Shown: piece after piece, positions 7,849 through 31,120 of the stretch
Layout of the letters: each line of letters begins with the position of its first letter
How positions within the stretch are numbered: position 1 is the stretch's first letter
Origin: a bacterium
Lineage (GTDB): Bacteria; Zixibacteria; MSB-5A5; GN15; FEB-12
Direction of reading: 5' to 3'
NCBI GenBank assembly: GCA_020444475.1
Contig: JAHLKV010000005.1
Span: 299,080-331,079, forward strand
DNA: 32,000 bases
Translations under genes and position numbers: made by a program
The notes under the pieces: generated by a model
Told to the model about the DNA's origin: nothing
The model's database searches: none
The model's input: the letters and a program-made list of their open reading frames with translations, nothing else

Positions 7849-7999
7849 GGAGCCAACCGTACCCCAATCCCCGTCGCCAGAATAGACTCCATCCTGTATC
7901 TTTAGTGCAGGACCGGATGGTCACGCAAGATTCGTTGCGGATATGCGTGTGAGGCCAGAACCACAGTCCGGGCGTTGGCGCCCAGGAAGGAAATGATCG

Positions 8000-11155: not shown

Positions 11156-11205
11156 TGGTGTCTCGTATCGATGTGAACTAATCGTGAGGCCAGGGAACAG
11201 AGACG

Positions 11206-18026: not shown

Positions 18027-19178
18027 CTAATCGATTCCATCTGAAACGGTGGGTCGCAGACGGTTGACCGCTTCAATAATACTCCTGGCTTGCGACTCGA
18101 GCGCGGCCGCGGCGTCGCAGAGCGCATCGTCACCTTTCAGGCTTGGAACGACCATGTCAAGTCTGTACAGGTTTGCGAACAGCAGCTTATAGATTGGCAC
18201 CTTCTGAGGTGGACATGGATCGCACCGAAGTTCCAGCTCAAGGTCAGACTTTGACTCATGGGCAAGACCAAACCAGCCGTCGAATGCGACCTCTGTCTCG
18301 AGAAACTCACGGAATGCCCTATTCAACCGAACGAAAAGCCGCGTCGCTATCTGGGGCAGGTTGGTGAGTTCCTGTCCGTCTCTCTTCGGCAAACTGTCGA
18401 GTAGCGCAGCAACCGCCTGCTGAGGGTAAACATCCTCAAAGAACCGTTTCTCGACGGGGCTTGCATGCACTCTGAGCGTACACAGATCAGCGCTCAGACA
18501 GAGGTACAAGATCTCCACTGCGCTCATGAACTGCGGCAGTTTGAAGTGATGGGCTGCGACGACCGCCGGACGTTGATCTTCATGCCACATGGCCGAGAGG
18601 CAGTAATGTCCTATGTGTTGCAGAAGGTCATCGGCGCAGGATTCTGGATTCTCAACGCCAGCACACTGCGTCGTCATGACTTCTGTACGGAATTGTGACA
18701 TGCGGAGGTAGTACGTTTCGTGGCCCATGTACATGTATCTGGCAAATCGGCTATCCGCAAACGGAAAGCCGGGACTTAGATAGATGTCCTCCACAACCAG
18801 GCTGTACTCCGACCAGTAATCGTGGGCTATCCGGCTCAGGCTGTAAGCCGGCAATCCGCGCGACGTTCTTCGAACGTCCAGGAAGTAGTGGCCGCTACCC
18901 ACCATCGATACCAGGCTTCGGAGTCTGTCCGGGCTAGTGAGAGGTGCTTCCTCCGGTTTGTGTTTAAGGGGTATGGCAACCGGCTCTCGCAGGAAGGCCG
19001 TGATCTCCTCCAGATCGTCGAATTCCCCACCGTTATTCTCAAGTTCCCTCCGGAAATCGTCGTACTTTCTCAAGCGGTCCACTAGTGGTCCCAAGACCTG
19101 CTTATCGTCCCGAAGCCCCGATTCTCTGCTATCGCAGTCGTACGAGGCACGTGAGCTTGTGTAGTAGTTGGACGTCAT
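18027..19178 (-). CDS. Hypothetical 383-aa protein (no recognisable motif, no obvious TM segment)
   Basis: Long ORF running from ATG19178 to TAG18027. It is packed 10 nt from the downstream gene and 29 nt from the upstream gene in the same operon. Confidence 0.75.
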   Translation of the reverse strand: MTSNYYTSSRASYDCDSRESGLRDDKQVLGPLVDRLRKYDDFRRELENNGGEFDDLEEITAFLREPVAIPLKHKPEEAPLTSPDRLRSLVSMVGSGHYFLDVRRTSRGLPAYSLSRIAHDYWSEYSLVVEDIYLSPGFPFADSRFARYMYMGHETYYLRMSQFRTEVMTTQCAGVENPESCADDLLQHIGHYCLSAMWHEDQRPAVVAAHHFKLPQFMSAVEILYLCLSADLCTLRVHASPVEKRFFEDVYPQQAVAALLDSLPKRDGQELTNLPQIATRLFVRLNRAFREFLETEVAFDGWFGLAHESKSDLELELRCDPCPPQKVPIYKLLFANLYRLDMVVPSLKGDDALCDAAAALESQARSIIEAVNRLRPTVSDGID

Positions 19179-19207: not shown

Positions 19208-21346
19208 TTAGAGGATCAACTGGTGACGTCGCTCTGCCATGCAGGAAGCTACATAGCGGCCAATCTTGTCGGTCACGGCAGTTTCATCTTCCAACTCGGC
19301 GTCGCTCAGAGCGATAGTCTTGTCAACAAGGTGCTCAAGCCCGGTCTCATTTGCGACACCAAGCCCGACGGTGGTAATGTGCAAGTCGGGTATGTCGTTT
19401 CGCCATGATCTCAGCAGTGAATGCACCTCCTCCTCGCCGCCAATGCCGGTATCAAACGACTCGTTCCATTTGCAGTCTGTGAGGTGGATCAGGTAGATGG
19501 TTCCACTTGTCAGCCTCCGAGCCTCGTCCATAATGTATGCCAGGGAGAGGGCGTCTTGCTGGATGCCTGTTCCGGTGTTCGGTAGTGATACCAGTGCTCT
19601 GGCGGCATCCTGATTGCTGGTAGCGACAGTTCGTCGTGGATGGGCAACCCATTGCACGAGAGGTCCCACCAAGCCGGAGCGTATGGCACCGCTGTGGTAC
19701 AGGCCCGCCAGCACCTGTACGTCGGATCGAGCGGTCGCCACTAGCCAGCTGCACGTGAGAATCTTGAGCACCCGCATCTGGTTCGAATCAAGAGACCCTG
19801 ACCCGTCGCAGGCGACTACCAGCAATGCCCGGCCGCGACGGTCCGGCTGACGGATCATCCGACTCCGGCGGAAGACGGCGGAGGACATATCGCCCAAAGC
19901 CAGCCTCGCCGGGTCAAGAGTACCACTCGTGCATACTCTCTGAGTTACGGGAACCCGCTCGACGCTGGGATATAGTATCCTTCGGATTGCATCGATGGTC
20001 GGGCGGCTTGCCTCCAGTAGCTCCGCTAACGCCACAATATCTTCCGAAAGCGCCACCGTGCAATCGAACTGCTCGCCGGTAACGGTCTCATCCGTGTCGA
20101 GGTTGACTGAGACGAGGTGTCCATCGGTCGGATTCCCCTCGATCGGACCGGTCTCGAACGCCCCGGAGATAAGAACGAACTCGAGCAGATCAGATCTCAT
20201 GTCCTCCCATTGAGCCTGTCTCCCAGAAGCCTCCCTCACGGCATTGTTGAAGTTAGCCAATGTGCGAGCACGCCATTCCTCATCGGACTCCTCTCCGAGA
20301 TGCTTCCTCAGAGCCATCAAGTCTCGCTCAAACTCGGATACCGGTTCGTCCGCCTTCCGTCCCAGCAAGTCGCTGACGTCGACCGAATCAAACAACCCAG
20401 GCTTTTGAGGTACGTCGGCAGGTCGTATGGCCAAGTTGTCATGATCCGTGGATGATCCCACTGCTTGTTCCCTGTGCAGCACTGTGTCCGTGTCGTGCGT
20501 CGACTTCTCACCATCCGCTTTCACCGCTGAACTCTCCTGTTCATCGAATGTATGGATCGTATCGAGGACGTTCTCACACAGCGCCTTGACCCACTCGCAT
20601 CCAAGATCCAGGAGGAGATCTGATCGGGTTGAGGAGAGCCGTTGTGTGAAACGCCGACAAACAGCTGCTGTGCTCGTCGCGAACAGGAAGGCAAGTGGAT
20701 GTTTGTTCATTGACAGATCTGTGGGTAGCACGTCGCCATACAGAACCGCAGTCTGGACAATATCCAGAATCGTATTGACCGAAGTTCGGTCACAGTGTGC
20801 GGCTACAAAGAGCCTGTATGCTTCTACCGGCTCCAGTCCCGATGCTCGCGACAGGTCTTCAAGCAATAGCCTGGTCTGGACACACCGAGTAATGCGCTTC
20901 GTGAGTTCCTCGAATACCGAACGGTTGATTGACCGATCGGCCGCATCCCCTGTTACTCCAAGAACTTCTCCAACGAATCGTTCGAGTAGTCGCCGGCTCG
21001 ATAATTCTCGATACTCAAGAAAAGCCGTGAGTCCAATAGCTGCAGAAGCTGCCATGCGAGCTGGATACGACGTGTAGCATGGGCTGAGCTGAGCCTGCAC
21101 CTTCGGCATCCCAGGAGACTGAGAAGGAATGCCAGCGTGAGTCGCCACAGCCCGCTGTGCCTCTCTTATCGCACGGGTCAGCAGACTCAGTGCCGAGAGT
21201 CGAATTCTATAGTCATTGGCAAACCGGAACGCGTCTCCAAGTCCGATCCCTGCCCAATCGGAGCGCGACCGTTTGCGTTCGATTGAACCGATGTTCGTAT
21301 GGTAGGCCTTAGTCTCGGCCCCGCCATGTCTAGATGTATCCGTCAT
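19208..21346 (-). CDS. NorD/CbbO-like protein with a C-terminal von Willebrand A domain
   Basis: ALLVVACDGSGSL carries the MIDAS DxSxS motif (19793-19807). NTGTGIQQD supplies the Thr and IHLTDCKW the Asp. The pre-vWA segment GTLDPARLALGDMSSAVFRR is typical of NorD/CbbO adaptors. ATG21346 lies 7 nt after the upstream stop; the track's 21481 start would overlap that gene. Confidence 0.85.
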   Translation of the reverse strand: MTDTSRHGGAETKAYHTNIGSIERKRSRSDWAGIGLGDAFRFANDYRIRLSALSLLTRAIREAQRAVATHAGIPSQSPGMPKVQAQLSPCYTSYPARMAASAAIGLTAFLEYRELSSRRLLERFVGEVLGVTGDAADRSINRSVFEELTKRITRCVQTRLLLEDLSRASGLEPVEAYRLFVAAHCDRTSVNTILDIVQTAVLYGDVLPTDLSMNKHPLAFLFATSTAAVCRRFTQRLSSTRSDLLLDLGCEWVKALCENVLDTIHTFDEQESSAVKADGEKSTHDTDTVLHREQAVGSSTDHDNLAIRPADVPQKPGLFDSVDVSDLLGRKADEPVSEFERDLMALRKHLGEESDEEWRARTLANFNNAVREASGRQAQWEDMRSDLLEFVLISGAFETGPIEGNPTDGHLVSVNLDTDETVTGEQFDCTVALSEDIVALAELLEASRPTIDAIRRILYPSVERVPVTQRVCTSGTLDPARLALGDMSSAVFRRSRMIRQPDRRGRALLVVACDGSGSLDSNQMRVLKILTCSWLVATARSDVQVLAGLYHSGAIRSGLVGPLVQWVAHPRRTVATSNQDAARALVSLPNTGTGIQQDALSLAYIMDEARRLTSGTIYLIHLTDCKWNESFDTGIGGEEEVHSLLRSWRNDIPDLHITTVGLGVANETGLEHLVDKTIALSDAELEDETAVTDKIGRYVASCMAERRHQLIL

Positions 21347-21353
21347 ATGGTTC

Positions 21354-22364
21354 TCAGAATAGATTAGCCGTGAGTGTCTTGTCCTCTTCCGGATTGCGCA
21401 TGCCGAACACCTCCTGCATGACCGATGGCAGGAGCTCCTTGTCCTTGGTATCCGCATTCCCAAGAATGGTGGCTTGCGCAACTTGCTGATGGGTCATGCC
21501 CGGCATGCTGTGCGCCTTTCGCAGGAAGGACAGATACCCGTGGATTGTCGGCGGCACCAGAGACTGGAGATTTCCTTCGCTCCGATGGCGACGAATGAGT
21601 CGGCCCAGCAGCACTATCTGGTTCACCAGTTCGGATTCAACGCCGATCTGCAGCGACTGTTCCGCCAGGCTCTGCAGTACCACCGATTCCAGCTCACTTG
21701 GCAGGTAGTCGATCGTAAGGTTGGAGCCGAACCGACGGCGCAGAGCATCATCAAGCGTCACCAATGTGTGGGTGGAGTCGTGTGCTGCCTGGTAATTGCT
21801 GTCCGCGATCCACGCTATTCCGTGACCGCTAATCCGTCTTCCGTCGGGCAGAACAATGTCGTCGTGCGTCATGAGGTCCAGTAGTCCTCCCTGGACGCTG
21901 GCAGCGTGTACCCGGCCCATTTCCCTCAGCCATACTACATTGTATGAGTCCTCGGGCGCGTCGGCCGCCTCGGTCAAGGACTGGACGAGTTGACTTGGTT
22001 CGTCAAATGTCGTGCCGTTCCTGATCGCGCGCCGCTGATACAACTCTCCGGGGGTTTCGTACACAGCCATCTCGACGGGGAAGAGCCGCACGGGCTTGAC
22101 CCGGTGACCGAGTTCCGAGCAGATTGCTTCGAAGTTTGCCGGAACCGTGCAGACGGCCTCGATCAGGCTGCTCTTTGCGGACCCGGTTGGACCGCTGACG
22201 TGTATGAACTCGTGAGCAACAATATCGTCCACCAGAGATTGGAGGTGCCACTTCAGCATATACAGCGGATGGCCATGCGTCGTGGGCAGAAGCTGCACGA
22301 GATCGGTTGGTCCCGCCTTGCGATACTCATCCTCGTTATCGACTCGAAAAACCTGGGCTGTCAT
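21354..22364 (-). CDS. AAA_5 (MoxR/CbbQ/NorQ-like) ATPase
   Basis: Walker A GPTGSAKS at 22170-22193. The Walker B position reads VVWLRE (21921-21938). LLDLMTHDDIVLPDGRRISGHGIAWIADSNY fits the AAA_5 core. AAGGGGA precedes ATG22364. Confidence 0.9.
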   Translation of the reverse strand: MTAQVFRVDNEDEYRKAGPTDLVQLLPTTHGHPLYMLKWHLQSLVDDIVAHEFIHVSGPTGSAKSSLIEAVCTVPANFEAICSELGHRVKPVRLFPVEMAVYETPGELYQRRAIRNGTTFDEPSQLVQSLTEAADAPEDSYNVVWLREMGRVHAASVQGGLLDLMTHDDIVLPDGRRISGHGIAWIADSNYQAAHDSTHTLVTLDDALRRRFGSNLTIDYLPSELESVVLQSLAEQSLQIGVESELVNQIVLLGRLIRRHRSEGNLQSLVPPTIHGYLSFLRKAHSMPGMTHQQVAQATILGNADTKDKELLPSVMQEVFGMRNPEEDKTLTANLF

Positions 22365-22383: not shown

Positions 22384-24645
22384 TTACTTGTGTAGAGTCA
22401 ATGCCAGTTTCGTGGTATCCGCAAATCCCACGTCCAGAGTTGACCCGGTGCATTCTGCGAGTTCGCTGCGAATCGTCAGCAGGGCCTGCGTGACCAGCAA
22501 ACGGGTCTGTTCAGCAACAACCCGGGCACCGTGGCTTATGAGACCAGATCCCAGTGACGCTACGACTTTCTCTCCGGTCTCGGGCGAAATTGTGATATGC
22601 GGAACAGAGACGCCAAGCACCCGCAGACCTCTCTTGAGCGATGTCAACAGTTCCCGTTCGGCTATCATTGCCAGATCCGATCCGGTGAGCGGAGCAAACA
22701 GAATTGGCCGTCCCACGCGGCTAAGGAATGCGTTCGAAAACAGTGACTTGATCTCTGCCTCGATGTTCTGCTGCAGCACAGCGCCCGATGGTGTTCCGCT
22801 AAAGCCTATGCTTCGCCGGAGTCGTTCATCCCGTCCTTCGGGGAGGTTGATGGTGAAGGCGAAAATCAGATTCGCACACGAGAACATCGCTCCCGTCGCG
22901 CTTTGCGCCTCACCTGTATCCAGTAACTGCAGGAATAAGTCAGCCAGGTGACTCCGTACAGCGACCGGAGCGTGGTCCAGGTCACTGACTTCGACTATGG
23001 CCCCAACTGAGTGTTTGGCTGCCTTTTCCAGGCGACCGGCCTCGTAAGAACCCACGATCCCCCGACCGGATCCCAGCAACTGGGCGCTCGCCGTGTGGTA
23101 ATCGGGCTGACTTGCCGCATCTATGTTGATGTGCGGAATCTTGAGGTAGCGAGCCAGCAAGGCCGCACTTTCGGACTTTCCAGTGCCCGGCGTCCCTTGG
23201 GCACAATAGCGTATCGGTTGATGGTCGGCGCGCGTGAGGCACTCTGTCTGAAGTCGACCGACCAGTTGCGAGAGAGCCTCGTCTTGCGCATACAAGTGCG
23301 CTGACAGGAATACCAGCAGGTCGGACGCGAGCAATCCTCGCACGAAATTCTCGTGAACCTGCGGCTTCCTTCTGCCGCGCGGTTTGTCGTGAATGCCGGC
23401 CAGCGTTTCTTGTTTACCGATCAGTCTATTGACAAACGCGGCAATCGACTCTCCATTCACCGCCATCTCTGAGTCGTCATGCCTCGTTACCCTTGCCGCA
23501 ATAACGGGAAGCATTCGCTGCCGCTCTGTCTCGGCCAGGGGGCGAAGTGCATCCAGCGCAGTCTCGTAAGCCCGCTCGACCCTTGCCCCCGATACTCCCC
23601 CTGATTGTCGGGCCGCAGATTCAACCGCGAACCGCGCCAATACATCGAATGGTATATCGGGCACGTAAGAAACCACCGGCAGCAGCGGATCACTCACTCC
23701 GCCCTGACCGCCATGAAAAACTGCCTGCAATTGCCGATAGTGCCCTGTGAATACCACCGGCTTATCCGATGACGACAGGATAGAAAGCAAACTCTGCAGT
23801 TGGTCGCCAAGTTCGTATGGACTCGTTGCTAGTGCGACACGACTTGCCGGCACCACCAGCCGGCCTGGTGCCTGCCTGGCCAGTTCAACGATATTCTTCG
23901 CACTGAGAGCAGGTGCCAGTACCATGCCAAGAGTCACACCACGGGTCTCTGCTGATCGTGCTAGTGATGCCATCGCAATATCCAGTATGATTGGCGATTC
24001 CGCGGCGACCGCCACGTTCAATGAACTTTCGAGCAAGTCCATGACCTCGCATGCCCAGGAACCCAGAGTCACTATGGAGTCATCATTTGTTTGATCCAGT
24101 GGCCACACCGGGCTCAGAACCTGGCCAAAATCAGCATACAGGCGCTCGAGTTCAGCAGCACTGTGCTGACGCGGTAACTCCGATTGAACCCATCGTGCGA
24201 AATTGTCGATCGCTTCCAACTCCGCCATCAGAACTGCCTCACGCGACATACTCAGGGGAGAGGTCGCCTTTACCTTCAGGCCGAGCCAGTACGTGGTCGT
24301 CTTCTTGACTGCGTTCGAGGTCGGCGGCAGCGAACGAACACCTTCACTGAGGCCAGACATATGTTTCCAGAGCGATGCCAGCGGAGGTTTGACCTCAGTA
24401 GGAGCTTCCAGACACTCGAGTTTCATCCATAGAATCGGCCCCTCGTGTAGTCGTGCGACTACGGACCTCACCCCTTGTCGCTCGCTTGTCGGTTCGGCTG
24501 TCCGAAACGACCGCCCATCGGGCAGCTTCATGATCTCGAAGCCGTAGACTCTCTTTACCAGTTCACTGACCTGCCACAGCACATCCGCAGCGCCCACATC
24601 TGCCGCTGTTGGTTGACACGCGGGGTTGGTTTGAGATTCTGTCAT
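22384..24645 (-). CDS. ClpA/ClpB-NBD2-like AAA+ protein with a ~470-aa unassigned N-terminal region
   Basis: QDEALSQLVGRL..IRYCAQGTPGTGKSESAALLARYL has its Walker A at 23173-23196. LLGSGRGIVGSYEAGRLEKAAK parallels Clp's LIGAPPGYVGYEEGGQLTE. IVEVSDLDHA (22975-22998) sits at the Walker B position. FLSRVGRPILFAPL parallels Clp's FLNRIDxIIxFxPL. Confidence 0.85.
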   Translation of the reverse strand: MTESQTNPACQPTAADVGAADVLWQVSELVKRVYGFEIMKLPDGRSFRTAEPTSERQGVRSVVARLHEGPILWMKLECLEAPTEVKPPLASLWKHMSGLSEGVRSLPPTSNAVKKTTTYWLGLKVKATSPLSMSREAVLMAELEAIDNFARWVQSELPRQHSAAELERLYADFGQVLSPVWPLDQTNDDSIVTLGSWACEVMDLLESSLNVAVAAESPIILDIAMASLARSAETRGVTLGMVLAPALSAKNIVELARQAPGRLVVPASRVALATSPYELGDQLQSLLSILSSSDKPVVFTGHYRQLQAVFHGGQGGVSDPLLPVVSYVPDIPFDVLARFAVESAARQSGGVSGARVERAYETALDALRPLAETERQRMLPVIAARVTRHDDSEMAVNGESIAAFVNRLIGKQETLAGIHDKPRGRRKPQVHENFVRGLLASDLLVFLSAHLYAQDEALSQLVGRLQTECLTRADHQPIRYCAQGTPGTGKSESAALLARYLKIPHINIDAASQPDYHTASAQLLGSGRGIVGSYEAGRLEKAAKHSVGAIVEVSDLDHAPVAVRSHLADLFLQLLDTGEAQSATGAMFSCANLIFAFTINLPEGRDERLRRSIGFSGTPSGAVLQQNIEAEIKSLFSNAFLSRVGRPILFAPLTGSDLAMIAERELLTSLKRGLRVLGVSVPHITISPETGEKVVASLGSGLISHGARVVAEQTRLLVTQALLTIRSELAECTGSTLDVGFADTTKLALTLHK

Positions 24646-24715: not shown

Positions 24716-24731
24716 TGCACACTCCGTGCCT
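24716..24731 (-). promoter_or_regulatory. Candidate sigma54 (-24/-12) promoter for the minus-strand operon
   Basis: The minus strand reads AGGCACGGAGTGTGCAAT, against the consensus TGGCACG-N4-TTGCW. GG and GC are separated by exactly 10 nt. The site is intergenic, about 70 nt upstream of ATG24645, and divergent from a sigma54-activator-type gene. Confidence 0.5.
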
Positions 24732-24811
24732 GCGCGAAACACGAACCTGGATCCGCTTGTAAGACAGTCCGTTATCCAGTCGTGCGGTTTCCTGCGGGAT
24801 CATGACATCCG

Positions 24812-24840
24812 TTGACTTGGGATTGCCCCGATGTTATCTT
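24812..24840 (+). promoter_or_regulatory. Candidate sigma70-type promoter for the activator-like gene
   Basis: TTGACT (24812-24817), a 17-nt spacer, then TATCTT (24835-24840). It lies about 80 nt upstream of ATG24920. Confidence 0.35.
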
Positions 24841-24919
24841 GTATTGATTTGCCCATGATCCTGTTGAGTTGTGTGGGTAACCCTTCCCGGGGCAGCACCG
24901 ATTTACGGAGACACGAGCC

Positions 24920-26614
24920 ATGCAGATAGACACCATTCGATTTTATGGGTATCCGTCCGCCAACTCACCTTCCCCCTATATTCTCGCTTTCGAAACGGCT
25001 GACGACCTGAAAAGAGCTCGTGAGAACATCCGCCTTGGCGCATTGCTCATGCGAAACGATGATCTCGAAGAACTCTGTGAATACGAAACCGTCATCCGCG
25101 ATCGTGGGAAGAAACACCCCGCCAGGAGTCTCCTTAGCTATTTCCTTCACGGGAAGCGGACCCGCTCCGATACCCGCATGCCGATTCTTCGCTGTGAGTA
25201 CATCGAAGCGGGGCGGTTGATAGCGAGTGTCGCGGGCTTGCTTGACCATGCAGCAGACCGGGGAGTACGCAACACCTACATCCTGGGGGTTCAGCCAGAC
25301 ATCTTCGAGGAGTGCTTGAGAAGTATCGAGGGCGATTCGGCAGGGTATGGCGGTGCCCATTGTGCTGCCTCGAAGGCAGAACTGACGGATCGCCCAGTAG
25401 CGGAAGAGATGCTGGATATTCTGACCATCAGGGAGGTTCCGGAAGCAGTCTCTTCGCTGTACCTCGGTACTTCGAAAGAGGTACAGCTGGTGCATCAGCT
25501 TATCCTGCGTACGGCCGAAATCACCGATCCGGTCCTCATCGTTGGAGAGAGTGGCACAGGAAAGGAACTGGTTGCCCGCTCGATACATGAGCAGAGTACA
25601 AGACGAACGGGGCCGTTTCGGGCGGTCAACTGCGGCGCCATTCCCACCGAACTCTTTGAATCGGAACTATTCGGAACCACGAAGAGCGCATTTACGAATT
25701 CTGCCGAGAGGGAGGGCCTCTGGGCGCAGGCGAATGGCGGCACGCTGTTTCTCGATGAAATCGGCGATCTGTCGCTTCTCCATCAAGTAAAGATTTTGCG
25801 CGCTCTGGAAGACGGTTACGTGCGTCGGGTCGGCGGCAACATCGATGAGCCGATCGATGCCAGGATTGTCAGCGCGACCAATCGGGATTTGGCCGTCATG
25901 GTCAAGGAGGGTCAATTCCGGGAGGATCTTTATTATCGGATTCACGGCATCGTGATCTATACGCCGGCGCTGCGAAACCACCCGGACGATATTCCACAAA
26001 TGGCGATCAGTTTCTGGTCGAAGATCGCGGGGAAGAAGACGAAGGCTCTGTCGACGGCGGTGTTGGAGGATCTCAAGGCCCGACGCTGGCTCGGCAACGG
26101 TCGGGAGTTGAGGATGTTCCTTTCGTCTCTGCACGGGCTCTTCAGAAACGAGACGATCACGCCTCACCACCTGCGGGTGGTCGACATGCTTTCCGGGTTT
26201 CGGTCGCGGAAGGGTTCGCAGGCGCAGTACGAAAAGAACCTCCGCAAGGTTGATCAGTTACGGCACTACCGGAGAATCATGGAAGTACTCTCTTCGCTCC
26301 GTACCTCGCTTCGTCCCGTGCTGATCGAGAACCTGACCGACCTTCGCACGGTTACCCTCGCGCGAGTGGTCATCAACAGCTATGCGGAGAAACTCGACTC
26401 ACTCGCCGATGAACCCGAGTACTTCAGCAGTATCGCCTCGCGCCGGGTGGTGATTGAACTGGCCGATGCTCTGCGTGACTTCTCGAAATTTCTCGAGACC
26501 GGCGCCGGACAGGTAAGGGAGTACTGGCAGCGCAATGTGCAGTCGCGCTACCAGAATGTCGACTCCGGCTGCTTCACCGAAATCCAGACCCTCCTCGACG
26601 AGGTCGAGAAATGA
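24920..26614 (+). CDS. Sigma54-interaction-domain (NtrC-type, bEBP-like) AAA+ protein with a variant GAFTGA loop and no recognisable HTH
   Basis: Central-domain motifs present: GESGTGKELVARSIH (25544-25567), ESELFGTTKSAFTNS (loop at 25682-25702), GGTLFLDEIGDL, DARIVSATNRDL, FREDLYYRI, PALRNHPDDI, GNGRELR. The ~190-aa N-terminal and ~150-aa C-terminal regions match nothing I recognise. Confidence 0.9.
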   Translation: MQIDTIRFYGYPSANSPSPYILAFETADDLKRARENIRLGALLMRNDDLEELCEYETVIRDRGKKHPARSLLSYFLHGKRTRSDTRMPILRCEYIEAGRLIASVAGLLDHAADRGVRNTYILGVQPDIFEECLRSIEGDSAGYGGAHCAASKAELTDRPVAEEMLDILTIREVPEAVSSLYLGTSKEVQLVHQLILRTAEITDPVLIVGESGTGKELVARSIHEQSTRRTGPFRAVNCGAIPTELFESELFGTTKSAFTNSAEREGLWAQANGGTLFLDEIGDLSLLHQVKILRALEDGYVRRVGGNIDEPIDARIVSATNRDLAVMVKEGQFREDLYYRIHGIVIYTPALRNHPDDIPQMAISFWSKIAGKKTKALSTAVLEDLKARRWLGNGRELRMFLSSLHGLFRNETITPHHLRVVDMLSGFRSRKGSQAQYEKNLRKVDQLRHYRRIMEVLSSLRTSLRPVLIENLTDLRTVTLARVVINSYAEKLDSLADEPEYFSSIASRRVVIELADALRDFSKFLETGAGQVREYWQRNVQSRYQNVDSGCFTEIQTLLDEVEK

Positions 26615-28797
26615 CAGCGGCGAAACCGCTTCGCGTATTCCTCAGCTACGGGCATGATGCCAATGAGGAACTGGTTCTTCGCATCCATGCCGACCTGGAG
26701 AATCGTGGTCACGATGTCTGGATCGACAAGAAGGAGATCAGACCGGGCGACGATTGGCGGCGTGAGATCACCGAGGGCATTCTCAACAGCCACCAGGTAC
26801 TGTCATTTCTCTCAAAGCACTCCACCCGCGATCCCGGCGTCTGTCGCGACGAGATTGCCATCGCCCTCGGCGTGAAGGGTGGCAACATCCAGACCATACT
26901 GGTCGAAAGCGAAACTGACGTCCAACCGCCTGTGAACATCAGTCATGTTCAATGGCTCGATATGCACGACTGGAAGGACGGGCATGGTGTTGTGCACATC
27001 GTGAAAGGCGAACCCGCTGCCGGTGATACAACCTGGGAAGAATGGTACCAGACCAGGTTCGCCGAAATTGTCCGGGTGGTGGAAAGCGAACCCAGCGTCC
27101 GCTTTGCCGGCGAGATAGAAACGCTCAACGGTTATCTGAAACCAATCCAGTCGGAAGCCCGCATATTCGAGCTACTCAGAAAAGGCTACGTTGGGCGCGA
27201 GTGGCTCTTTGAGGCCATAGAGCAGTGGCGGCAGGACAAGGCAGGCAAGTCACGACTCTTCTGGATCATGGGTGAGCCCGGGGTCGGCAAGAGCGCCTTT
27301 GCCGCCCAGTTAACTCACACGCGGGGCGATACCGTTATCGCAGCCCAGTTTGTCGAATGGGACAAGCCGGATCACAGGAGTCCTGAGCGCGTCGTCCGCA
27401 GTATTGCCTTCCAGCTCGCTACCCGGCTTCCGGATTATCGCAAGCTATTGCTGACTCTGCCGGAGATTGCGAAACTGGACGGGAAGAACGCGGCGGATCT
27501 GTTTGACTACCTTCTGGCTCACCGGCTGAAGTCGGCTATTGGTGGCGGGCGCGAGCGGTATCTGGTCGTGATAGATGCCCTCGATGAAGCAGGCGATCAT
27601 GGGCGCAACCCGTTAGCGGAAATGCTTGCACGTCACGTCGGGCGTCTGCCCGATTGGCTGGGAATTGTCGTGACCAGCCGCTCCGAGTTTGATGTCAAGA
27701 CTCCGTTCCAGGCGTTGAATCCCATTCCATTCGATACTCAGTCTGAGTCCAACCGTACCGATCTCTGCTACTACCTTCAACAAAGGCTCGCTCCGCAACT
27801 CGATAACCGCTCCGACGCCGATCACCTCCTCGACCAAATCATAGACAAGAGTGAAGGCGTGTTCCTCTATGTTGAGCGGTTCTGTGACGATGTGCAACAG
27901 GACCATCTTTCACTGGACCACCCGGACCAGTTCCCGCAAGGCCTCGGTGGCATCTACTACCAGTGGTTTCAGCGGCAATTCCCCGATCCTGAGCAATTCG
28001 AGCAAACGATTGAACCGATGCTCGGCGCAATCCTCGCCGCTCGAGAGCCGTTGCCAATCGAGGTATTGCAGGGGCTGTTCGGTTGGCGCGAACCCGAGCT
28101 TCGCAAATGGCTTCGCATACTCGGCTCTCTCTTTCCGGTCAACGACGGATCCCAGGGTCAGGTTATCAGACCGTACCACAAGTCATTTGCTGACTGGCTG
28201 ACCGACGCGGAAAAGGCGGGACAGTTCTTGGTTAGCCGATCAGAAGGCTGCCGCCTGCTAGCCTGTCGCGGAATGAGCGAGTTTCGTCAACGTGCTCAGA
28301 CTATGCCGAGATATTGGGTGGCTCACTTGGCAGATCACCTCGTCGAACAACAAGAATCAGATGATCTCGAAGAACTACTCTGTTCATTCGAATTCCTGAG
28401 AGAGTATTCGAAGTATATTGGTCTTTCGTACACACCAGGGAATGAGTTTGCTGCCCGCGTTCAGCAATTCCTGGATACTCTTATTGAGCAAGACCGTCCG
28501 GCGGATCAGAAGCTGGAAGGATTATGCGCGCACATTACAGAGCTTGCAGCAGGATTAGACCTATGGGCGGTCCGCTATGTTGGAGGTCCAGATCCTAAAG
28601 CAGTCTGCAGAAACTGTGGTCAAGCTGGGATCATCCACGGTCACGTCGATCTAGGTGGCGTTGACTACTATGACAATTACTTTGCGTTCTGTACAAACTG
28701 CTTTTGGGCTTTTTTCACGGAACAGTACGCAATGTGGGGTTCGGAGGAAGCCGTTTGGGACTTTGACTATGCGACGAATACGTATCATTGGCCGTGA
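26611..28797 (+). CDS. TIR - NACHT/STAND P-loop NTPase with an unassigned C-terminal module ending in a CxxC..CxxC motif
   Basis: LRVFLSYGHD and GVCRDEIAIAL, with the TIR Glu at 26851-26853. Walker A GEPGVGKS at 27271-27294. Walker B LVVIDALDEA. CRNCGQ..FCTNC at about 28605-28708. ATG26611 overlaps the upstream TGA (ATGA). Confidence 0.9.
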   Translation: MTAAKPLRVFLSYGHDANEELVLRIHADLENRGHDVWIDKKEIRPGDDWRREITEGILNSHQVLSFLSKHSTRDPGVCRDEIAIALGVKGGNIQTILVESETDVQPPVNISHVQWLDMHDWKDGHGVVHIVKGEPAAGDTTWEEWYQTRFAEIVRVVESEPSVRFAGEIETLNGYLKPIQSEARIFELLRKGYVGREWLFEAIEQWRQDKAGKSRLFWIMGEPGVGKSAFAAQLTHTRGDTVIAAQFVEWDKPDHRSPERVVRSIAFQLATRLPDYRKLLLTLPEIAKLDGKNAADLFDYLLAHRLKSAIGGGRERYLVVIDALDEAGDHGRNPLAEMLARHVGRLPDWLGIVVTSRSEFDVKTPFQALNPIPFDTQSESNRTDLCYYLQQRLAPQLDNRSDADHLLDQIIDKSEGVFLYVERFCDDVQQDHLSLDHPDQFPQGLGGIYYQWFQRQFPDPEQFEQTIEPMLGAILAAREPLPIEVLQGLFGWREPELRKWLRILGSLFPVNDGSQGQVIRPYHKSFADWLTDAEKAGQFLVSRSEGCRLLACRGMSEFRQRAQTMPRYWVAHLADHLVEQQESDDLEELLCSFEFLREYSKYIGLSYTPGNEFAARVQQFLDTLIEQDRPADQKLEGLCAHITELAAGLDLWAVRYVGGPDPKAVCRNCGQAGIIHGHVDLGGVDYYDNYFAFCTNCFWAFFTEQYAMWGSEEAVWDFDYATNTYHWP

Positions 28798-28798
28798 T

Positions 28799-28820
28799 AC
28801 GCGATAAACCGCGTTGTTTT
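28799..28820 (+). terminator. Weak candidate intrinsic terminator
   Basis: ACGCG-ATAAAC-CGCGT forms a 5-bp stem, followed by TGTTTT, immediately after the stop at 28797. Confidence 0.3.
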
Positions 28821-28967
28821 AGATGCCCTTGCAACAGAATGAAAGGCAGGCTGACATTTGGGACAGAAGGTACTGGACCGACTATGGGTTGGTCTTGAGA
28901 ACTGGTGAGTAAATAGAGGTGTTGCGCATGATGGAGTCTCAACGAGGCACACGTAACAGGTGAACAA

Positions 28968-29162
28968 GTGACTGGAGCAGGTGTGAGAGATCGCGTGTTT
29001 ATAAGCAACAGCCACAAAGATCGTACGTGGTTGGGGCGGCTTCGTGTCGAGCTGGAACCCGGAATCAGTGAGAAACGGGACGATTGCTGGGACGACTCCG
29101 ACTCTTGGCTTCATGCAAGTGCTGTGTTCGAGAGGACGAGAGCGGGAGGCGGAGCCGAGTGA
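28968..29162 (+). pseudogene. 64-codon TIR N-terminal fragment (relic or mini-ORF)
   Basis: RVFISNSHKDRTWLGRLRVELEPGISEKRDDCWDDS matches the opening of bacterial TIR_2-type domains, then the similarity ends. None of the three frames continues a TIR. The stop TGA overlaps GTG29159 of the next gene. Confidence 0.45.
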
Positions 29163-29935
29163 ACGCGAAACAGGGCAGTTCAAAGACCGGCGCATGGATT
29201 TTCGTCTCCCACTCGCATCGAGATCTGGGGCAAGTCCGCCAAATCCGCAATGAGCTCGAGAAGCTTGGCCATAATCCGCTGCTCTTTTTCCTCAAATGCC
29301 TGAGCAGCGACGATGCCCGCCTGCCCCAACTCATTCGCGACGAGATTGAAGCCCGCGAATGGTTCATCCTCTGCGATAGCCCCAACGCCAGGCGCTCCGG
29401 CTGGGTGCAGCAGGAGAGGAAGTTGATCAAGGCGATGACGGGAAAGGTCATCGAGACGATAGATTTGAGCAAGGATCCCCAAACCGAACTTCACAAACTG
29501 ATCCGTCTTTCCAAACGTGCCACGGTCTTTCTTTCCTATGCCCGGCAAGACCGCGAAATCGCAGAGCGGATACGACGCGCTCTGCTTGAGCATGATTTCG
29601 GCGTTTGGTTCGATGCGTCGGTCCCAGCGGGGCAGGATTGGGCGGTGGCCATCCAGTCGGCGATTGATGACGCGGTCGCCCGTGGTTTCGTGCTTGTCCT
29701 GTTGAGTCCGGCATCACTGGCAAGCCAGTTTTGCAAGCATGAAACAGAGTATGCTCTCCAGCTCGCTGTACGCTCGCAACGTAGTAACGTCATCCCGGTT
29801 GTGGTCGCTCCGTGTGCGCACGAGGCGTTGCCGGTGCCGCTTGGGAACATCCAATTGTTCGACCTGACAACCGGCCCGTTTGACGAACGTATGAGCTCGC
29901 TCATTCACAACCTGAAGACTCGCAAAATGGAGTGA
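29159..29935 (+). CDS. Tandem TIR-TIR protein
   Basis: TIR 1: WIFVSHSHRD..SGWVQQERKL, with Glu at 29414-29416. TIR 2: VFLSYARQD..SQFCKHETEYA, with Glu at 29741-29743. GGGAGG at 29144-29149 lies 9 nt before GTG29159, so GTG29159 is preferred over the track's TTG29084. Confidence 0.85.
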   Translation: MNAKQGSSKTGAWIFVSHSHRDLGQVRQIRNELEKLGHNPLLFFLKCLSSDDARLPQLIRDEIEAREWFILCDSPNARRSGWVQQERKLIKAMTGKVIETIDLSKDPQTELHKLIRLSKRATVFLSYARQDREIAERIRRALLEHDFGVWFDASVPAGQDWAVAIQSAIDDAVARGFVLVLLSPASLASQFCKHETEYALQLAVRSQRSNVIPVVVAPCAHEALPVPLGNIQLFDLTTGPFDERMSSLIHNLKTRKME

Positions 29936-29938
29936 CGC

Positions 29939-31120
29939 GTGAGTGAATCGCCAATCAAGACACCTCGGACAAGAAAAGCCCCGCGCTCCGAGGCTCGTGA
30001 ATACTGTTTTGTCATCATGTCCTACCGACCGCGGTCGCAGTACGATCGAGTCTATCAACAGCTTTGCCAACTAATCGAAAGCAACTGCGGCCTGCGCTGT
30101 GTCCGTGCTGACCGCGAACCAGAACCAGGGCGCGACTTGCTGGGCAAGGTGCATGAGAAGATTCTTGGCTCTAGCGTCGTTGTTGCTGACGTAACAGAGT
30201 ATAGTCCAAACGTCTATTACGAATATGGTTACGCCAGCGCTCACGATCGCCTGCCGATTCTCATTGCGAAGCGCGGAGCGAGACTTCCCACGGATCTGGT
30301 CGGGAAGGAGGTATTGCGTTATAAGGGAACACCGGCAGTTGACAGGAAGTTTTCAAAGGACCTTATAGACTGTGTCAACCGGGAGTTGTGCTCGCCACTG
30401 CCCGAGCAGCGGAGAATGCTCGCAAGCGCACGTCCGTTTCCTGCTTATCTTGCCACCGCACCGCGCGTGCCGGGTGCGGGTTCGAAACACTGGTGGCACC
30501 CGGATGAAGGACAGACTTTTGGTGACATGCTTGGAGTCGCGGGCATCCTTACGGCCTACGGAAATCTTTTCGGAACGCGGAAGATTCCGCACCTACTGCA
30601 TGCGCAATGCGTCCACGCTGATGTGCTGGCACTACCTGCGTCCTTCTTCTGTATAGGTTCTCCAAAAGTGAACAAGGTTACCGGACACTTTCTTCCCTGG
30701 GTGCAGAGAGGACTTGTACCATTCTGGGAGATGCCAAGACTTGGGCGAAAGCCCGACAGGCGCGTCGTGATCAAGGGGGATCCGGATCTGGATGACCTAT
30801 TGAAACTACCGGTTGAGAAAAAGCGAGATGGCTCAATTAGTGATTACGGGCTGATAATTCGTGCGCCCCATCCATTGGATTCCCAGCACTTGGTCTTGAT
30901 TATGGCCGGCCGGCACAGCATTGGAACTCACGCCGCATGCATGATGGTAACCAGGCAGGAACTAATCAGCGCTCTTGAGCTGCGCCTCAAGAGACTTGGG
31001 GTATCGCTACGCGAAACTGCGCAGCCGTTCTGGGGTGTCGTAAGAGGAACACTGCTGTCCCAGGGAGAGATGCTATCGGAGGTTGAGATCGTCAAGGTGG
31101 GTGGGTACGTTCCCGGTTGA
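29939..31120 (+). CDS. Protein with an N-terminal TIR/nucleoside-2-deoxyribosyltransferase-like Rossmannoid domain and an unassigned C-terminal domain
   Basis: CFVIMSYRPRS..VVVADVTEYSPNVYYEYGYASAHDRLPILIAK fits the FVIMPF..aDlt..npNVfyElGyA pattern of NDT/TIR-like modules. GGAG lies 6 nt before GTG29939, which is 3 nt after the upstream stop. Confidence 0.75.
   Translation: MSESPIKTPRTRKAPRSEAREYCFVIMSYRPRSQYDRVYQQLCQLIESNCGLRCVRADREPEPGRDLLGKVHEKILGSSVVVADVTEYSPNVYYEYGYASAHDRLPILIAKRGARLPTDLVGKEVLRYKGTPAVDRKFSKDLIDCVNRELCSPLPEQRRMLASARPFPAYLATAPRVPGAGSKHWWHPDEGQTFGDMLGVAGILTAYGNLFGTRKIPHLLHAQCVHADVLALPASFFCIGSPKVNKVTGHFLPWVQRGLVPFWEMPRLGRKPDRRVVIKGDPDLDDLLKLPVEKKRDGSISDYGLIIRAPHPLDSQHLVLIMAGRHSIGTHAACMMVTRQELISALELRLKRLGVSLRETAQPFWGVVRGTLLSQGEMLSEVEIVKVGGYVPG

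What the first reader, a model, noticed from the sequence alone, without database searches (positions are those of the whole stretch)
24920..26614. Sigma54-activator-type AAA+ lacking a DNA-binding domain, with a KSAFTNS loop, translationally coupled to a TIR-NACHT gene
The central domain is complete: Walker A and B, DARIVSATN, FREDLYYRI and GNGRELR. The sigma54-contacting GAFTGA loop reads SAFTNS (25682-25702), keeping the Phe-Thr core. No Fis-type HTH is visible at the C-terminus, and the N-terminal ~190 aa are not a receiver, GAF or PAS domain I can recognise. The stop codon overlaps the ATG of the TIR-NACHT gene (ATGA at 26611-26614).

An enhancer-binding-type ATPase co-translated with an immune-type STAND protein, and divergent from a sigma54-promoter operon, suggests a circuit in which threat sensing is wired to sigma54-dependent induction. 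Alternatively, the AAA+ module may have been recruited for a non-transcriptional role.
Basis: partly seen in the sequence, partly recalled or inferred. Interest (0 to 1): 0.75.

Follow-up and report, generated by a model that had tools for sequence, protein, structure and literature searches.

The report
New sigma-54 activator guarding immune-type operon
This gene encodes a member of a widespread, undescribed subfamily of sigma-54 transcription activators with two novel end domains and no classical DNA-binding motif; it most likely switches on a neighbouring MoxR/vWA "conflict-system" operon from a conserved enhancer and promoter, and is co-encoded with a TIR-NACHT immune-type sensor.

Summary
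The 564-aa ORF has a complete sigma-54-type AAA+ core. Its L1 loop reads SAFTNS, it has no HTH, and its stop codon overlaps the TIR-NACHT start codon in an ATGA.

It belongs to a family of about 390 clusters at 50% identity. Members share a confidently modelled N-terminal alpha/beta domain with no known fold relative, and a C-terminal four-helix bundle where the Fis-type HTH normally sits.

In 16 of 17 distinct loci where this family flanks a ClpA-like/MoxR-like/vWA-like operon, a -24/-12 promoter lies 25-74 bp upstream of the first operon gene. Three loci with a different EBP at that position also have the promoter. Four loci with no EBP lack it (Fisher p = 5e-4). An AACTCAAC-type repeat 65-140 bp upstream of the promoter is the most enriched word (p about 3e-14). 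It also flanks a family member that has no such operon.

The best reading is a genuine sigma-54 activator that probably binds DNA through an unrecognised domain. The 4-bp overlap with a TIR gene holds in all five close relatives. More distant members pair with other STAND, RelA/SpoT or NUDIX genes. How the signal enters is unknown.

This is a new variant of a known kind, of moderate to high interest.

The parts
24920..26614 (+). Gene for the 564-aa sigma-54-EBP-type AAA+ protein (new subfamily)
   Evidence: ORF. Sigma54_activat 2e-59 plus AAA_lid_14. About 50% identity to the FleQ/NtrC1 cores with all catalytic motifs. Full-length homologues at 34-77% identity, none with HTH_8.
24920..25342 (+). 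N-terminal alpha/beta domain (aa 1-141) specific to the family, followed by a low-confidence linker (aa 142-159). Conserved basic motif DRGKKHPARSLLSYFL at 25100-25147, with K65 invariant.
   Evidence: AF2 model pLDDT 86. No PDB or viral fold match. No Pfam or PDB sequence hit. 392 clusters at 50% identity, always N-terminal. It is the fastest-evolving domain: 58% identity against 79% for the core and 96% for the C-domain in the closest relative.
25466..26176 (+). AAA+ core (aa 183-346) plus lid (aa 352-419): Walker A 25544-25567, Walker B 25745-25765, R-finger/sensor I region 25856-25882, sensor II 26093-26113
25682..25702 (+). L1 loop KSAFTNS, the equivalent of GAFTGA. The F-T core is kept; positions 1, 5 and 6 are substituted.
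   Evidence: Aligns with EKGAFTGA of FleQ. Family loop statistics. Natural functional variants GAFTDA, GAFTHA and GAYTGS are listed in PMC4641369.
26210..26608 (+). C-terminal four-helix bundle (aa 431-563) in the place of the Fis-type HTH. Conserved LRHYRR at 26258-26275.
   Evidence: AF2 model pLDDT 85 with four long helices. Only generic 4HB fold matches: MCP2201 ligand-binding domain TM 0.57, E 0.3. No Pfam or PDB sequence hit.
26611..28797 (+). TIR-NACHT-winged-helix STAND gene whose start overlaps the EBP stop (ATGA 26611-26614). TIR VCRDEI motif at 26839-26856; NACHT Walker A at 27271-27294.
   Evidence: It is 88% identical to the L038 partner over aa 1-577, after which the C-terminus is unrelated.
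24716..24731 (-). Sigma-54 (-24/-12) promoter AGGCACGGAGTGTGCA, 71 bp upstream of the ATG of the divergent operon
   Evidence: Invariant GGCA-N7-TGC columns in the four-locus alignment. Recurs 25-74 bp upstream of the first operon gene in 16 of 17 distinct loci with the family EBP.
24811..24870 (-). Enhancer-like array of three direct repeats: AACTCAAC 24863-24870, AAATCAAT 24843-24850, AAGTCAAC 24811-24818. Spacing is 20 and 32 bp, and the last copy starts 88 bp upstream of the GG of the -24 element.
   Evidence: Same positions and spacing in L001, L003 and L038. ACTCAAC is the top enriched 7-mer: 10 of 16 intergenic regions against 73 of 4054 background windows, p=3e-14. Arrays also flank the family EBP in L005.
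24812..24840 (+). Candidate sigma-70-type promoter (TTGACT-17-TATCTT with TG) for the EBP/TIR-NACHT operon. It overlaps repeat 3.
   Evidence: The count of such sites is at chance level, so this is weak and positional only.
28799..28824 (+). Terminator-like hairpin plus T-run starting 2 bp after the TIR-NACHT stop codon. It would close a bicistronic operon.
   Evidence: The count of such sites is at chance level, so the evidence is positional only.
22384..24645 (-). First gene of the divergent target operon: a 753-aa double-AAA+ protein whose C-terminal module is ClpA-D2/AAA_2-like
   Evidence: Conserved in 25 or more loci.
21354..22364 (-). MoxR-like AAA+ (336 aa) with the variant P-loop GPTGSAKS
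   Evidence: AAA_5 at 2.4e-5. Alignment A4. 26 genome loci. P-loop. The variant is described in PMC7159879.
19208..21346 (-). Protein of about 712 aa with a helical N-terminus and a divergent vWA-like C-terminus (DGSGS MIDAS-like motif). The likely true start is M46 at 21346, not the TTG at 21481.
   Evidence: No Pfam hit. The vWA assignment is inferred from the motif and from PMC7159879.
16052..19178 (-). Distal operon genes: a conserved 383-aa protein of unknown function (18027-19178) and a 654-aa TPR protein (16052-18016)

Best explanation
The gene encodes a genuine sigma-54-dependent transcriptional activator of a previously undescribed architectural subfamily: a novel alpha/beta N-domain, a clade-6 AAA+ core, and a four-helix bundle in place of the HTH.

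Proposed mechanism, with the basis for each step:
1. The activator and the TIR-NACHT protein are made together from one bicistronic, translationally coupled operon. The overlap is shown; the operon's promoter and terminator are only weakly indicated.
2. The activator binds the three AAGTCAAC/AACTCAAC direct repeats at 24811-24870 through its N- or C-terminal domain. This is inferred from the co-occurrence of the motif with the family.
3. On an unknown signal it assembles into an ATP-hydrolysing ring. The catalytic motifs are intact (shown).
4. Its SAFTNS L1 loop remodels the sigma-54 holoenzyme held at the -24/-12 promoter at 24716-24731 (inferred).
5. This switches on the otherwise silent divergent operon that encodes a double-AAA+/MoxR-like/vWA-like conflict-type machine.

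The strict activator dependence of sigma-54 promoters would act as a safety catch on a potentially harmful effector system. The signal probably enters through the fast-evolving N-domain and/or through the co-translated STAND partner. That step is speculative.
For: (1) The AAA+ core is intact, with all ATPase and R-finger motifs, and the F-T loop core is retained.

(2) The -24/-12 element is invariant in a four-locus alignment of otherwise diverged intergenic regions. It lies 25-74 bp upstream of the first operon gene in 16 of 17 distinct loci carrying the family EBP, from Acidobacteriota, Desulfobacterota, Planctomycetota, Lentisphaerota and other phyla. The chance expectation is about 0.013 per region for a consensus score of 10 or more.

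(3) The promoter is present if and only if an EBP gene is adjacent. It is found in 19 of 20 loci with an EBP, including three in which a different Sigma54_activat protein occupies the same position. It is found in 0 of 4 loci without one. Fisher p=4.7e-4.

(4) The ACTCAAC repeat is the most enriched word in these intergenic regions (p=3e-14). It lies 65-140 bp upstream of the -24 element, and the 20/32-bp spacing is conserved in the close clade. Ten exact copies flank the family EBP gene in L005, which has no MoxR operon.

(5) Substitutions at loop positions 5 and 6 have natural precedents regarded as functional: GAFTDA, GAFTHA and GAYTGS (PMC4641369).

(6) The tripartite architecture is conserved over about 390 clusters.
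Against: - No recognisable DNA-binding fold is present. The C-domain is a generic four-helix bundle and the N-domain matches nothing.
- The G-to-S change at loop position 1 has no documented functional precedent. The review PMC7175178 states that most GAFTGA mutants cannot activate transcription.
- Across the family the loop is unusually variable. Only 15 of 74 members have G[AS]FTGA, 10 have H-S/N in place of F-T, and some loops are fully degenerate.
- The sigma-54 promoter persists next to members with H-S or degenerate loops: L008, L018, L031 and L033. An intact loop and the promoter therefore do not co-vary as a simple model predicts.
- The window's own promoter deviates from consensus at two positions and is not significant on its own.
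- The presence of rpoN in the source genome could not be checked.
- No experiment exists.
Confidence: 0.6

Rival explanations
1. It is a sigma-54 activator that works from solution without binding DNA, as the D-domain-less FlgR and CtcC do. The AACTCAAC repeats would be bound by another factor or have another role. The C-terminal bundle would serve oligomerisation or partner binding.
For: No known DNA-binding fold is present. bEBPs without a D domain are an accepted group (PMC7175178). Three family loci with a sigma-54 promoter lack the repeat: L022, L028 and L032.
Against: The repeat co-occurs with the family EBP. It is absent where another EBP or no EBP flanks the operon. In L005 the only gene shared with the other repeat-bearing loci is the family EBP, which the arrays flank on both sides. 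No other conserved candidate DNA-binding gene is present in these loci.
Confidence: 0.15
2. The AAA+ module has been recruited for a non-transcriptional job. For example, it could act as an ATP-driven remodeller or chaperone of the co-translated TIR-NACHT protein or of the MoxR/vWA complex. The sigma-54 promoter would then be served by another activator.
For: The translational coupling suggests a stoichiometric complex with the STAND protein. L1 loops in the family are far more variable than in canonical bEBPs, including fully degenerate ones next to intact promoters. There is no HTH.
Against: The promoter is present only when an EBP gene is adjacent, and unrelated EBPs replace the family at the same position. 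The enhancer-like repeats track the family. The window protein keeps the F-T core. The downstream partner is not conserved across the family, whereas the promoter is.
Confidence: 0.08
3. It is a DNA-binding regulator that acts independently of sigma-54. It could be a repressor or sigma-70-type regulator in the manner of TyrR, VpsR or the repressor mode of FleQ, or an anti-activator. By sitting on the repeats that overlap its own -35-like element, it would mainly autoregulate the EBP/TIR-NACHT operon.
For: Repeat 3 overlaps a sigma-70-like -35 hexamer on the EBP strand. Three of the six loop positions are non-canonical. FleQ is the closest solved core; its dual sigma-54/sigma-70 roles are cited from my own knowledge, not from a tool result.
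Against: The sigma-70-like site is at chance level. The conserved element at the correct distance from the repeats is a -24/-12 promoter. The ATPase motifs and the F-T core are kept, which would be unnecessary for a pure repressor.
Confidence: 0.1

Closest known systems
Canonical bacterial enhancer-binding proteins (NtrC, NtrC1, FleQ, PspF, NifA; Pfam PF00158)
   Same: A clade-6 AAA+ core about 50% identical to FleQ and NtrC1, with Walker A/B, R-fingers, sensor II and an L1 loop that keeps the F-T pair. It is encoded divergently from a -24/-12 promoter that has upstream repeats at enhancer distance.
   Different: There is no HTH_8 D domain; a 145-aa four-helix bundle takes its place. The N-domain is not a receiver, PAS, GAF, V4R or ACT domain and has no fold relative. 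The loop reads SAFTNS, and the loop is highly variable across the family. The family fits none of the five architectural groups of PMC7175178.
D-domain-less bEBPs (FlgR of Helicobacter, CtcC of Chlamydia, FleT)
   Same: It lacks the Fis-type HTH (groups as in PMC7175178).
   Different: Those proteins end after the AAA+ domain and, except for FleT, carry a receiver domain. This family has a conserved extra C-terminal domain, a novel N-domain and an associated repeat array that implies DNA binding.
RtcR-type CARF-AAA+-HTH regulators (PADLOC PDLC01995; NCBIfam NF038308)
   Same: This is the best PADLOC hit (4e-82). The concept is also similar: a sigma-54 activator that couples a stress or defence signal to induction of an adjacent operon.
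   Different: The match covers only the AAA+ core (profile positions 167-412 of 481). Neither the CARF nor the HTH part aligns. The N-domain model finds none of the CARF structures that the PDB holds (the presence of CARF entries in the PDB is from my own knowledge).
MoxR-vWA 'FtsH-type' ternary conflict systems (Kaur, Burroughs, Iyer, Aravind 2020, PMC7159879), for the target operon
   Same: The operon has a MoxR-like ATPase with the unusual G-x-x-x-[ST]-A-K-S P-loop. It has a protein with a helical N-terminus and a divergent vWA-like C-terminus. It has a two-module AAA+ protein whose N-terminal module lacks a P-loop. It sits in a STAND/TIR-rich island.
   Different: The active AAA+ module scores as ClpA-D2/AAA_2, not FtsH. 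The vWA assignment rests on a motif only. That paper reports no sigma-54 promoter or EBP for these systems.
Bacterial TIR-STAND / NLR-related (bNACHT, Avs-like) immune sensors, for the co-translated partner
   Same: The partner has a TIR_2 domain with a VCRDEI glutamate motif, a NACHT/NPHP3_N NTPase and a winged helix. Its C-terminal sensor region is swapped between close relatives.
   Different: Characterised bNACHT and Avs proteins act as single-gene systems (this statement is from my own knowledge). Here the gene is translationally coupled to a sigma-54 activator and sits next to a multi-gene ATPase operon.

Membership tests
Bacterial enhancer-binding proteins (sigma-54 activators) | Clade-6 AAA+ domain (PF00158) with Walker A/B, R-fingers and sensor II | tested here: met
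   Sigma54_activat at 2e-59, far above the gathering score. About 50% identity to the FleQ core with all motifs. The motifs are conserved family-wide.
Bacterial enhancer-binding proteins (sigma-54 activators) | GAFTGA L1 loop that contacts sigma-54 | tested here: inconclusive
   The loop reads SAFTNS. F and T are kept and positions 1, 5 and 6 are changed. Variants at positions 5 and 6 have natural precedents (PMC4641369). G1S has none that I found.
Bacterial enhancer-binding proteins (sigma-54 activators) | A cognate -24/-12 promoter at a linked target operon | tested here: met
   A conserved promoter lies 25-74 bp upstream of the divergent operon in 16 of 17 distinct family loci. It is present only where an EBP is adjacent, p=4.7e-4.
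Bacterial enhancer-binding proteins (sigma-54 activators) | C-terminal Fis-type HTH (HTH_8) that binds upstream activating sequences | tested here: not met
   No HTH_8 even at E<=5. The C-terminus models as four long helices. Enhancer-like repeats do exist, but which domain binds them is unknown. This feature is not universal among accepted bEBPs.
Bacterial enhancer-binding proteins (sigma-54 activators) | ATP-dependent conversion of the sigma-54 holoenzyme closed complex to an open complex; rpoN present in the genome | not testable with these tools
   This needs in vitro transcription or a reporter assay.
RtcR-type CARF-AAA+-HTH regulators | N-terminal CARF domain | tested here: not met
   The PADLOC models align only to profile positions 167-412. 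The N-domain model (pLDDT 86) has no PDB fold hit better than E 0.09 with TM below 0.3.
RtcR-type CARF-AAA+-HTH regulators | C-terminal HTH | tested here: not met
D-domain-less response-regulator bEBPs (FlgR/CtcC group) | N-terminal receiver domain, with the protein ending after the AAA+ lid | tested here: not met
   No Response_reg hit. A conserved 145-aa C-terminal domain is present.
MoxR-vWA FtsH-type ternary conflict system (divergent operon) | MoxR-clade AAA+ with the variant P-loop GXXXTAKS | tested here: met
   AAA_5 at 2.4e-5. The P-loop GPTGSAKS is invariant in four orthologues. The criterion comes from PMC7159879.
MoxR-vWA FtsH-type ternary conflict system (divergent operon) | Divergent vWA protein with a large helical N-terminal domain | tested here: inconclusive
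   No Pfam hit even at E<=5. Only a DGSGS MIDAS-like motif at aa 559 supports the assignment.
MoxR-vWA FtsH-type ternary conflict system (divergent operon) | Third component with two FtsH-type AAA+ modules, the N-terminal one inactive | tested here: inconclusive
   There is one active module at aa 483-644, and it scores as AAA_2/ClpA-D2 rather than FtsH. The N-terminal half has no P-loop. The FtsH affinity was not confirmed.
TIR-STAND (bacterial NLR-related) sensors (downstream gene) | N-terminal TIR plus a central NACHT-type STAND NTPase with intact Walker motifs | tested here: met
   TIR_2 at 3e-24, NPHP3_N at 2e-22, NACHT, and the winged-helix HTH_TANC1. GEPGVGKS, VVIDALDEA and the VCRDEI motif are present. 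Anti-phage activity cannot be tested here.

The most novel reading that the evidence does not exclude
The novel N-terminal domain would be a receptor for a nucleotide-derived second messenger made, or destroyed, by the variable gene that follows the activator: TIR in this clade, RelA/SpoT-like synthetase or NUDIX hydrolase in others. A STAND/TIR sensor that detects an invader would then signal through a small molecule to a dedicated sigma-54 activator. The activator would bind a new type of enhancer through a non-HTH fold and induce a MoxR/vWA/AAA+ effector machine. This would be a transcriptional output arm of bacterial TIR immunity, with sigma-54's strict activator dependence as its safety catch.
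Probability: 0.15. Interest if true: 0.85.

Novelty: new variant of a known kind. Interest (0 to 1): 0.62.

Why it matters
There are four reasons.

First, it defines a large bEBP subfamily (about 390 clusters at 50% identity, found in many phyla) that falls outside the five textbook bEBP architectures. The family has two uncharacterised domains and a conserved candidate enhancer motif. It is therefore a concrete system for finding a new DNA-binding or signal-input module.

Second, it gives the computationally predicted MoxR-vWA ternary conflict systems their first proposed regulatory logic: a silent sigma-54 promoter opened by a dedicated activator.

Third, it physically links a TIR-STAND immune-type sensor to a transcription activator. 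This suggests that some bacterial immune modules are induced rather than constitutive. A reporter, a loop mutant and a gel-shift would test this directly.

Fourth, the natural spectrum of L1 loops next to intact promoters (F-T, Y-T, H-S, A-T and degenerate) is a ready-made experiment on what the GAFTGA motif really requires.

Tried and rejected
- Hidden HTH or known sensor domain. Pfam at E<=5, NCBIfam, PADLOC, profile searches against PDB sequences, and Foldseek on confident domain models all found nothing for the N-domain. For the C-domain they found only generic four-helix-bundle similarity.
- CARF identity of the N-domain, suggested by the PADLOC RtcR hit. Rejected because the match is restricted to the AAA+ core and there is no CARF fold hit.
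- Judging the sigma-54 site by window statistics alone. It is at chance level, so I relied on cross-genome conservation instead.
- Co-loss test: do degenerate loops coincide with loss of the promoter? The result was negative. L031 and L033 keep the promoter, so the test neither supports nor cleanly refutes loop function.
- Sigma-54 promoters and AACTCAAC arrays in the other family contexts. In the ThiF/JAB/Pup-ligase and STAND-island loci L006, L007, L009, L010 and L011, only L009 has a plausible promoter. L005 has the arrays but no recognisable -24/-12 element.
- Assigning the DNA-binding role by charge or conservation. Both domains have a median pI of 9.1 and conserved basic residues, so this was inconclusive.
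- Technical failures:
  - The search for homologous proteins with the N-domain alignment returned no scored hits, not even the family itself, and was treated as uninformative.
  - The window's own contig could not be retrieved.
- Literature searches found no paper linking sigma-54 EBPs to these STAND/TIR/MoxR systems.
Full report
OBSERVATION

The ORF at 24920..26614 (+, 564 aa) exists as described. Pfam assigns Sigma54_activat to aa 183-346 (E 2e-59) and the AAA+ lid to aa 352-419. NCBIfam matches every major bEBP model, but only over the core and far below each model's own cut-off.

KSAFTNS is at 25682-25702. The core is about 50% identical to the FleQ, NtrC1 and PspF AAA+ domains, and the loop aligns exactly with EKGAFTGA.

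Nothing in Pfam (even at E<=5), NCBIfam or PADLOC covers aa 1-180 or aa 420-564. The stop codon overlaps the ATG of a TIR_2 / NPHP3_N-NACHT / winged-helix gene in an ATGA at 26611-26614. The sigma-54-like site is on the minus strand at 24716-24731. On window statistics alone it is not distinguishable from chance.

A CONSERVED FAMILY WITH TWO NEW DOMAINS

A search of 5.8 billion proteins returned about 90 proteins of 540-590 aa that match over the full length at 34-77% identity. None carries HTH_8, whereas the canonical response-regulator bEBPs lower in the list do. Both terminal regions are conserved across the family at 20-27% identity with few gaps.

AlphaFold2 models built from family alignments are confident. 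The N-domain (pLDDT 86) is an alpha/beta fold of six strands and five helices, followed by a disordered linker. The C-domain (pLDDT 85) is a bundle of four long helices.

Fold searches gave the following:
- N-domain against the PDB: nothing significant, with best E 0.09 and TM below 0.3.
- N-domain against viral models: nothing.
- C-domain against the PDB: only generic four-helix bundles, such as chemoreceptor ligand-binding domains (TM 0.57, E 0.3).
- Profile searches against PDB sequences: nothing.

An exhaustive HMMER search with the N-domain profile found 392 clusters at 50% identity. The domain is always at the extreme N-terminus and almost always in proteins of this length. It is therefore a dedicated module of this architecture, not a promiscuous domain.

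The best PADLOC hit, an RtcR/PspF 'CARF_AAA_HTH' model, covers only the AAA+ core. The protein is therefore not an RtcR-type regulator.

THE DIVERGENT OPERON AND ITS PROMOTER

Upstream on the minus strand lie five genes:
- a 753-aa double-AAA+ protein whose active module is ClpA-D2-like
- a 336-aa MoxR-like ATPase with the unusual P-loop GPTGSAKS
- a protein of about 712 aa with a DGSGS MIDAS-like motif
- a 383-aa protein of unknown function
- a TPR protein

This resembles the 'FtsH-type' MoxR-vWA ternary conflict systems predicted by Kaur et al. 2020 (PMC7159879). The FtsH and vWA criteria were not confirmed here.

The same operon sits divergently from family members at 60%, 51% and 34% identity. 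When the four intergenic regions are aligned, the columns GGCA-N7-TGC are invariant while the surrounding sequence has diverged.

I then ran the reverse test. A scan of GTDB species genomes with the MoxR-like protein returned 26 loci from Acidobacteriota, Desulfobacterota, Planctomycetota, Lentisphaerota, Chloroflexota, Myxococcota and other phyla. I annotated these with HMMs built here. Near-identical loci were collapsed, and only loci with enough upstream sequence were counted.

| Neighbour of the operon | Distinct loci | With a -24/-12 promoter |
|---|---|---|
| Family EBP | 17 | 16 |
| A different Sigma54_activat protein (L020, L035, L036) | 3 | 3 |
| No EBP within reach (L014, L025, L029, L030) | 4 | 0 |

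In the 16 family loci the promoter lies 25-74 bp upstream of the first operon gene. The three replacement EBPs were confirmed as Sigma54_activat proteins. The association between promoter and adjacent EBP gives Fisher p=4.7e-4. The background frequency of matches of that quality is about 0.013 per upstream region.

This is strong comparative evidence that the operon is sigma-54-dependent. It also indicates that the adjacent EBP, whichever kind it is, is its activator.

AN ENHANCER-LIKE REPEAT THAT TRAVELS WITH THE FAMILY

In the window, three direct repeats (AACTCAAC, AAATCAAT, AAGTCAAC; 24811-24870, minus strand) are spaced 20 and 32 bp apart. The last one starts 88 bp upstream of the GG of the -24 element. 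L001, L003 and L038 have the same layout.

An unbiased 7-mer enrichment over 16 intergenic regions picks ACTCAAC as the top word. It occurs in 10 of 16 regions against 73 of 4054 background windows, p=3e-14. The motif is absent where another EBP or no EBP flanks the operon.

In L005 a family member sits in a STAND island with no MoxR operon. Ten exact AACTCAAC copies form arrays immediately upstream and downstream of the EBP gene. The only gene common to all these places is the family EBP.

By parsimony, the family binds this motif, so 'no DNA-binding domain' probably means 'no recognisable one'. Which domain does it is unresolved. Both domains carry conserved basic residues and a median pI of 9.1. 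Between the window protein and its closest relative the C-domain is 96% identical and the N-domain only 58%. That pattern fits a conserved output or DNA-binding role for the C-domain and a fast-evolving input role for the N-domain, but it is only a hint.

THE LOOP

Among 74 full-length family members:

| Loop core | Members |
|---|---|
| F/Y-T | 49 |
| F-S | 6 |
| H-S/N | 10 |
| A-T | 5 |
| other | 4 |

Only 15 have G[AS]FTGA, against 21 of 21 canonical hits from the same search. The ATPase motifs are uniformly conserved.

Kazakov et al. 2015 (PMC4641369) list GAFTDA, GAFTHA, GAYTGS and GAFSGA as variants that maintain the ability to activate. They predict that even GVATGV works at sigma-54 promoters. 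The N at position 5 and the S at position 6 of SAFTNS therefore have precedents, while the S at position 1 does not.

The sigma-54 promoter also persists next to H-S loops (L008, L018) and next to fully degenerate loops (L031, L033). This remains unexplained. Possible reasons are that these loops still work, that another EBP acts in trans, or that those members have changed role.

THE TIR-NACHT PARTNER

All five members of the close clade (51-100% identity) have a downstream gene that overlaps by 4 bp. All four whose downstream product could be annotated start with a TIR domain. What follows the TIR differs: NACHT alone, NACHT-TPR, or a short protein followed by a SLATT gene.

The window's partner is 88% identical to that of L038 over aa 1-577 and then becomes unrelated. 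This is the modular swapping of the sensor region that is typical of STAND immune proteins.

More distant family members are followed by other genes:
- NACHT-WD40
- DUF4062-NACHT
- RelA/SpoT-RyR proteins
- a NUDIX hydrolase
- unknown small proteins

Another set lies beside a ThiF/JAB/AAA/Pup-ligase cluster.

The EBP is thus a regulator module shared among several conflict-type systems. The TIR coupling is a clade-level feature. The recurrence of nucleotide-signalling enzymes (TIR, RelA/SpoT, NUDIX) is suggestive of a small-molecule input, but it is not evidence.

MECHANISM AND RIVALS

I commit, at about 0.6, to a genuine sigma-54 activator that binds the AACTCAAC-type repeats and opens the promoter at 24716-24731. 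This would induce the MoxR/vWA/AAA+ operon. The activator and the TIR-NACHT sensor would be produced together from their own operon. A sigma-70-like site and a terminator-like hairpin delimit that operon, but both are at chance-level counts.

The rivals are:
- The same activator acting from solution, without binding DNA (0.15).
- A sigma-54-independent regulator or anti-activator (0.1).
- A non-transcriptional remodeller of the STAND protein (0.08).

How the signal enters is unknown.

COMPARISON WITH WHAT IS KNOWN, AND NOVELTY

The protein passes the core bEBP criteria: the AAA+ domain and a linked promoter. It fails the HTH criterion, which is not universal. The loop criterion is inconclusive.

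It is not an RtcR/CARF regulator and not a FlgR/CtcC-type protein. It fits none of the five architectural groups in the 2020 review PMC7175178.

I found no paper that links sigma-54 EBPs to STAND/TIR or MoxR-vWA conflict systems, in the full-text library or in the held supplement of Kaur et al..

I rate it a new variant of a known kind, with interest 0.62.

Noticed in passing
window 3411-15003 and 29084-31120: The window is an island of STAND/TIR-type genes: DUF4062-NACHT-TPR (3411-7508), AAA-RyR (8000-11155), TIR-NB-ARC-TPR (11206-15003), a double-TIR protein (29084-29935), and a 393-aa protein with a weak TIR-like N-terminus that hits a PADLOC 'Effector' TIR model at 2e-8 (29939-31120).
   Followed up: partly
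window 8000-11155; L005 14905-17808; L007 4739-6787 and 19051-21695; L009 4999-7656 and 8226-10004; L021 2440-5031; L023 2343-5012; protein P0073: RyR-domain proteins recur next to family EBPs as AAA-RyR, TrkA_N-RyR, TIR-RyR and RelA/SpoT-RyR. One family member (P0073, 645 aa) has a RyR domain fused to the EBP itself. The meaning of this link is unknown.
   Followed up: no
L006 1547-9166; L009 14690-21671; L010 11929-21620: A second recurrent neighbourhood of the family is a ThiF(E1)/JAB/proteasomal-type AAA/two Pup-ligase cluster. L009 has a plausible sigma-54 promoter (TGGCACCGGGCTCGCT, 13451-13466) 70 bp upstream of that operon. L006 and L010 have none that I could recognise.
   Followed up: partly
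L005 9857-9934 and 11657-11712: Tandem arrays of GGTTGAGTT(TGA), the complement of AACTCAACC, occur here. Three copies lie upstream of the family EBP gene, and four to five copies at 15-18 bp spacing start right after its stop codon. No recognisable -24/-12 element is nearby.
   Followed up: partly
L008, L018 (loops GAHSRA, GTHSEA); L031, L033 (degenerate loops): A recurrent G-x-H-[SN]-x-A version of the GAFTGA loop occurs in 10 of 74 family members, and a few loops are fully degenerate. These variants sit next to good sigma-54 promoters, so loop and promoter do not co-vary.
   Followed up: partly
window 19208-21481 (-): The mechanical ORF starts at a TTG that overlaps the MoxR-like gene by 128 bp. 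Homologues are 712-719 aa, so the true start is probably the ATG at 21346 (M46), 8 bp after the MoxR-like stop codon.
   Followed up: yes
window 28342-28797 vs L038 5301-6344: The TIR-NACHT proteins of the window and its closest relative are 88% identical up to aa 577. After that they are unrelated: a Cys-rich tail of about 150 aa here (CRNCGQ...CTNCFW) against TPR repeats there. This is a swap of the sensor region.
   Followed up: partly
L020 1135-3762 (-): In one genome the family EBP is replaced at the same position by an 876-aa protein. It combines a metallo-beta-lactamase-fold domain with a Sigma54_activat AAA+ domain (loop GAYTGA) and also has no HTH_8 hit.
   Followed up: no
L015 5841-7459; L026/L027 7642-9982; L031 9992-13178: Several MAG loci show the EBP, AAA2, MoxR-like or vWA genes split over two or three frames. 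These may be assembly errors or real pseudogenisation; I did not distinguish between the two.
   Followed up: no
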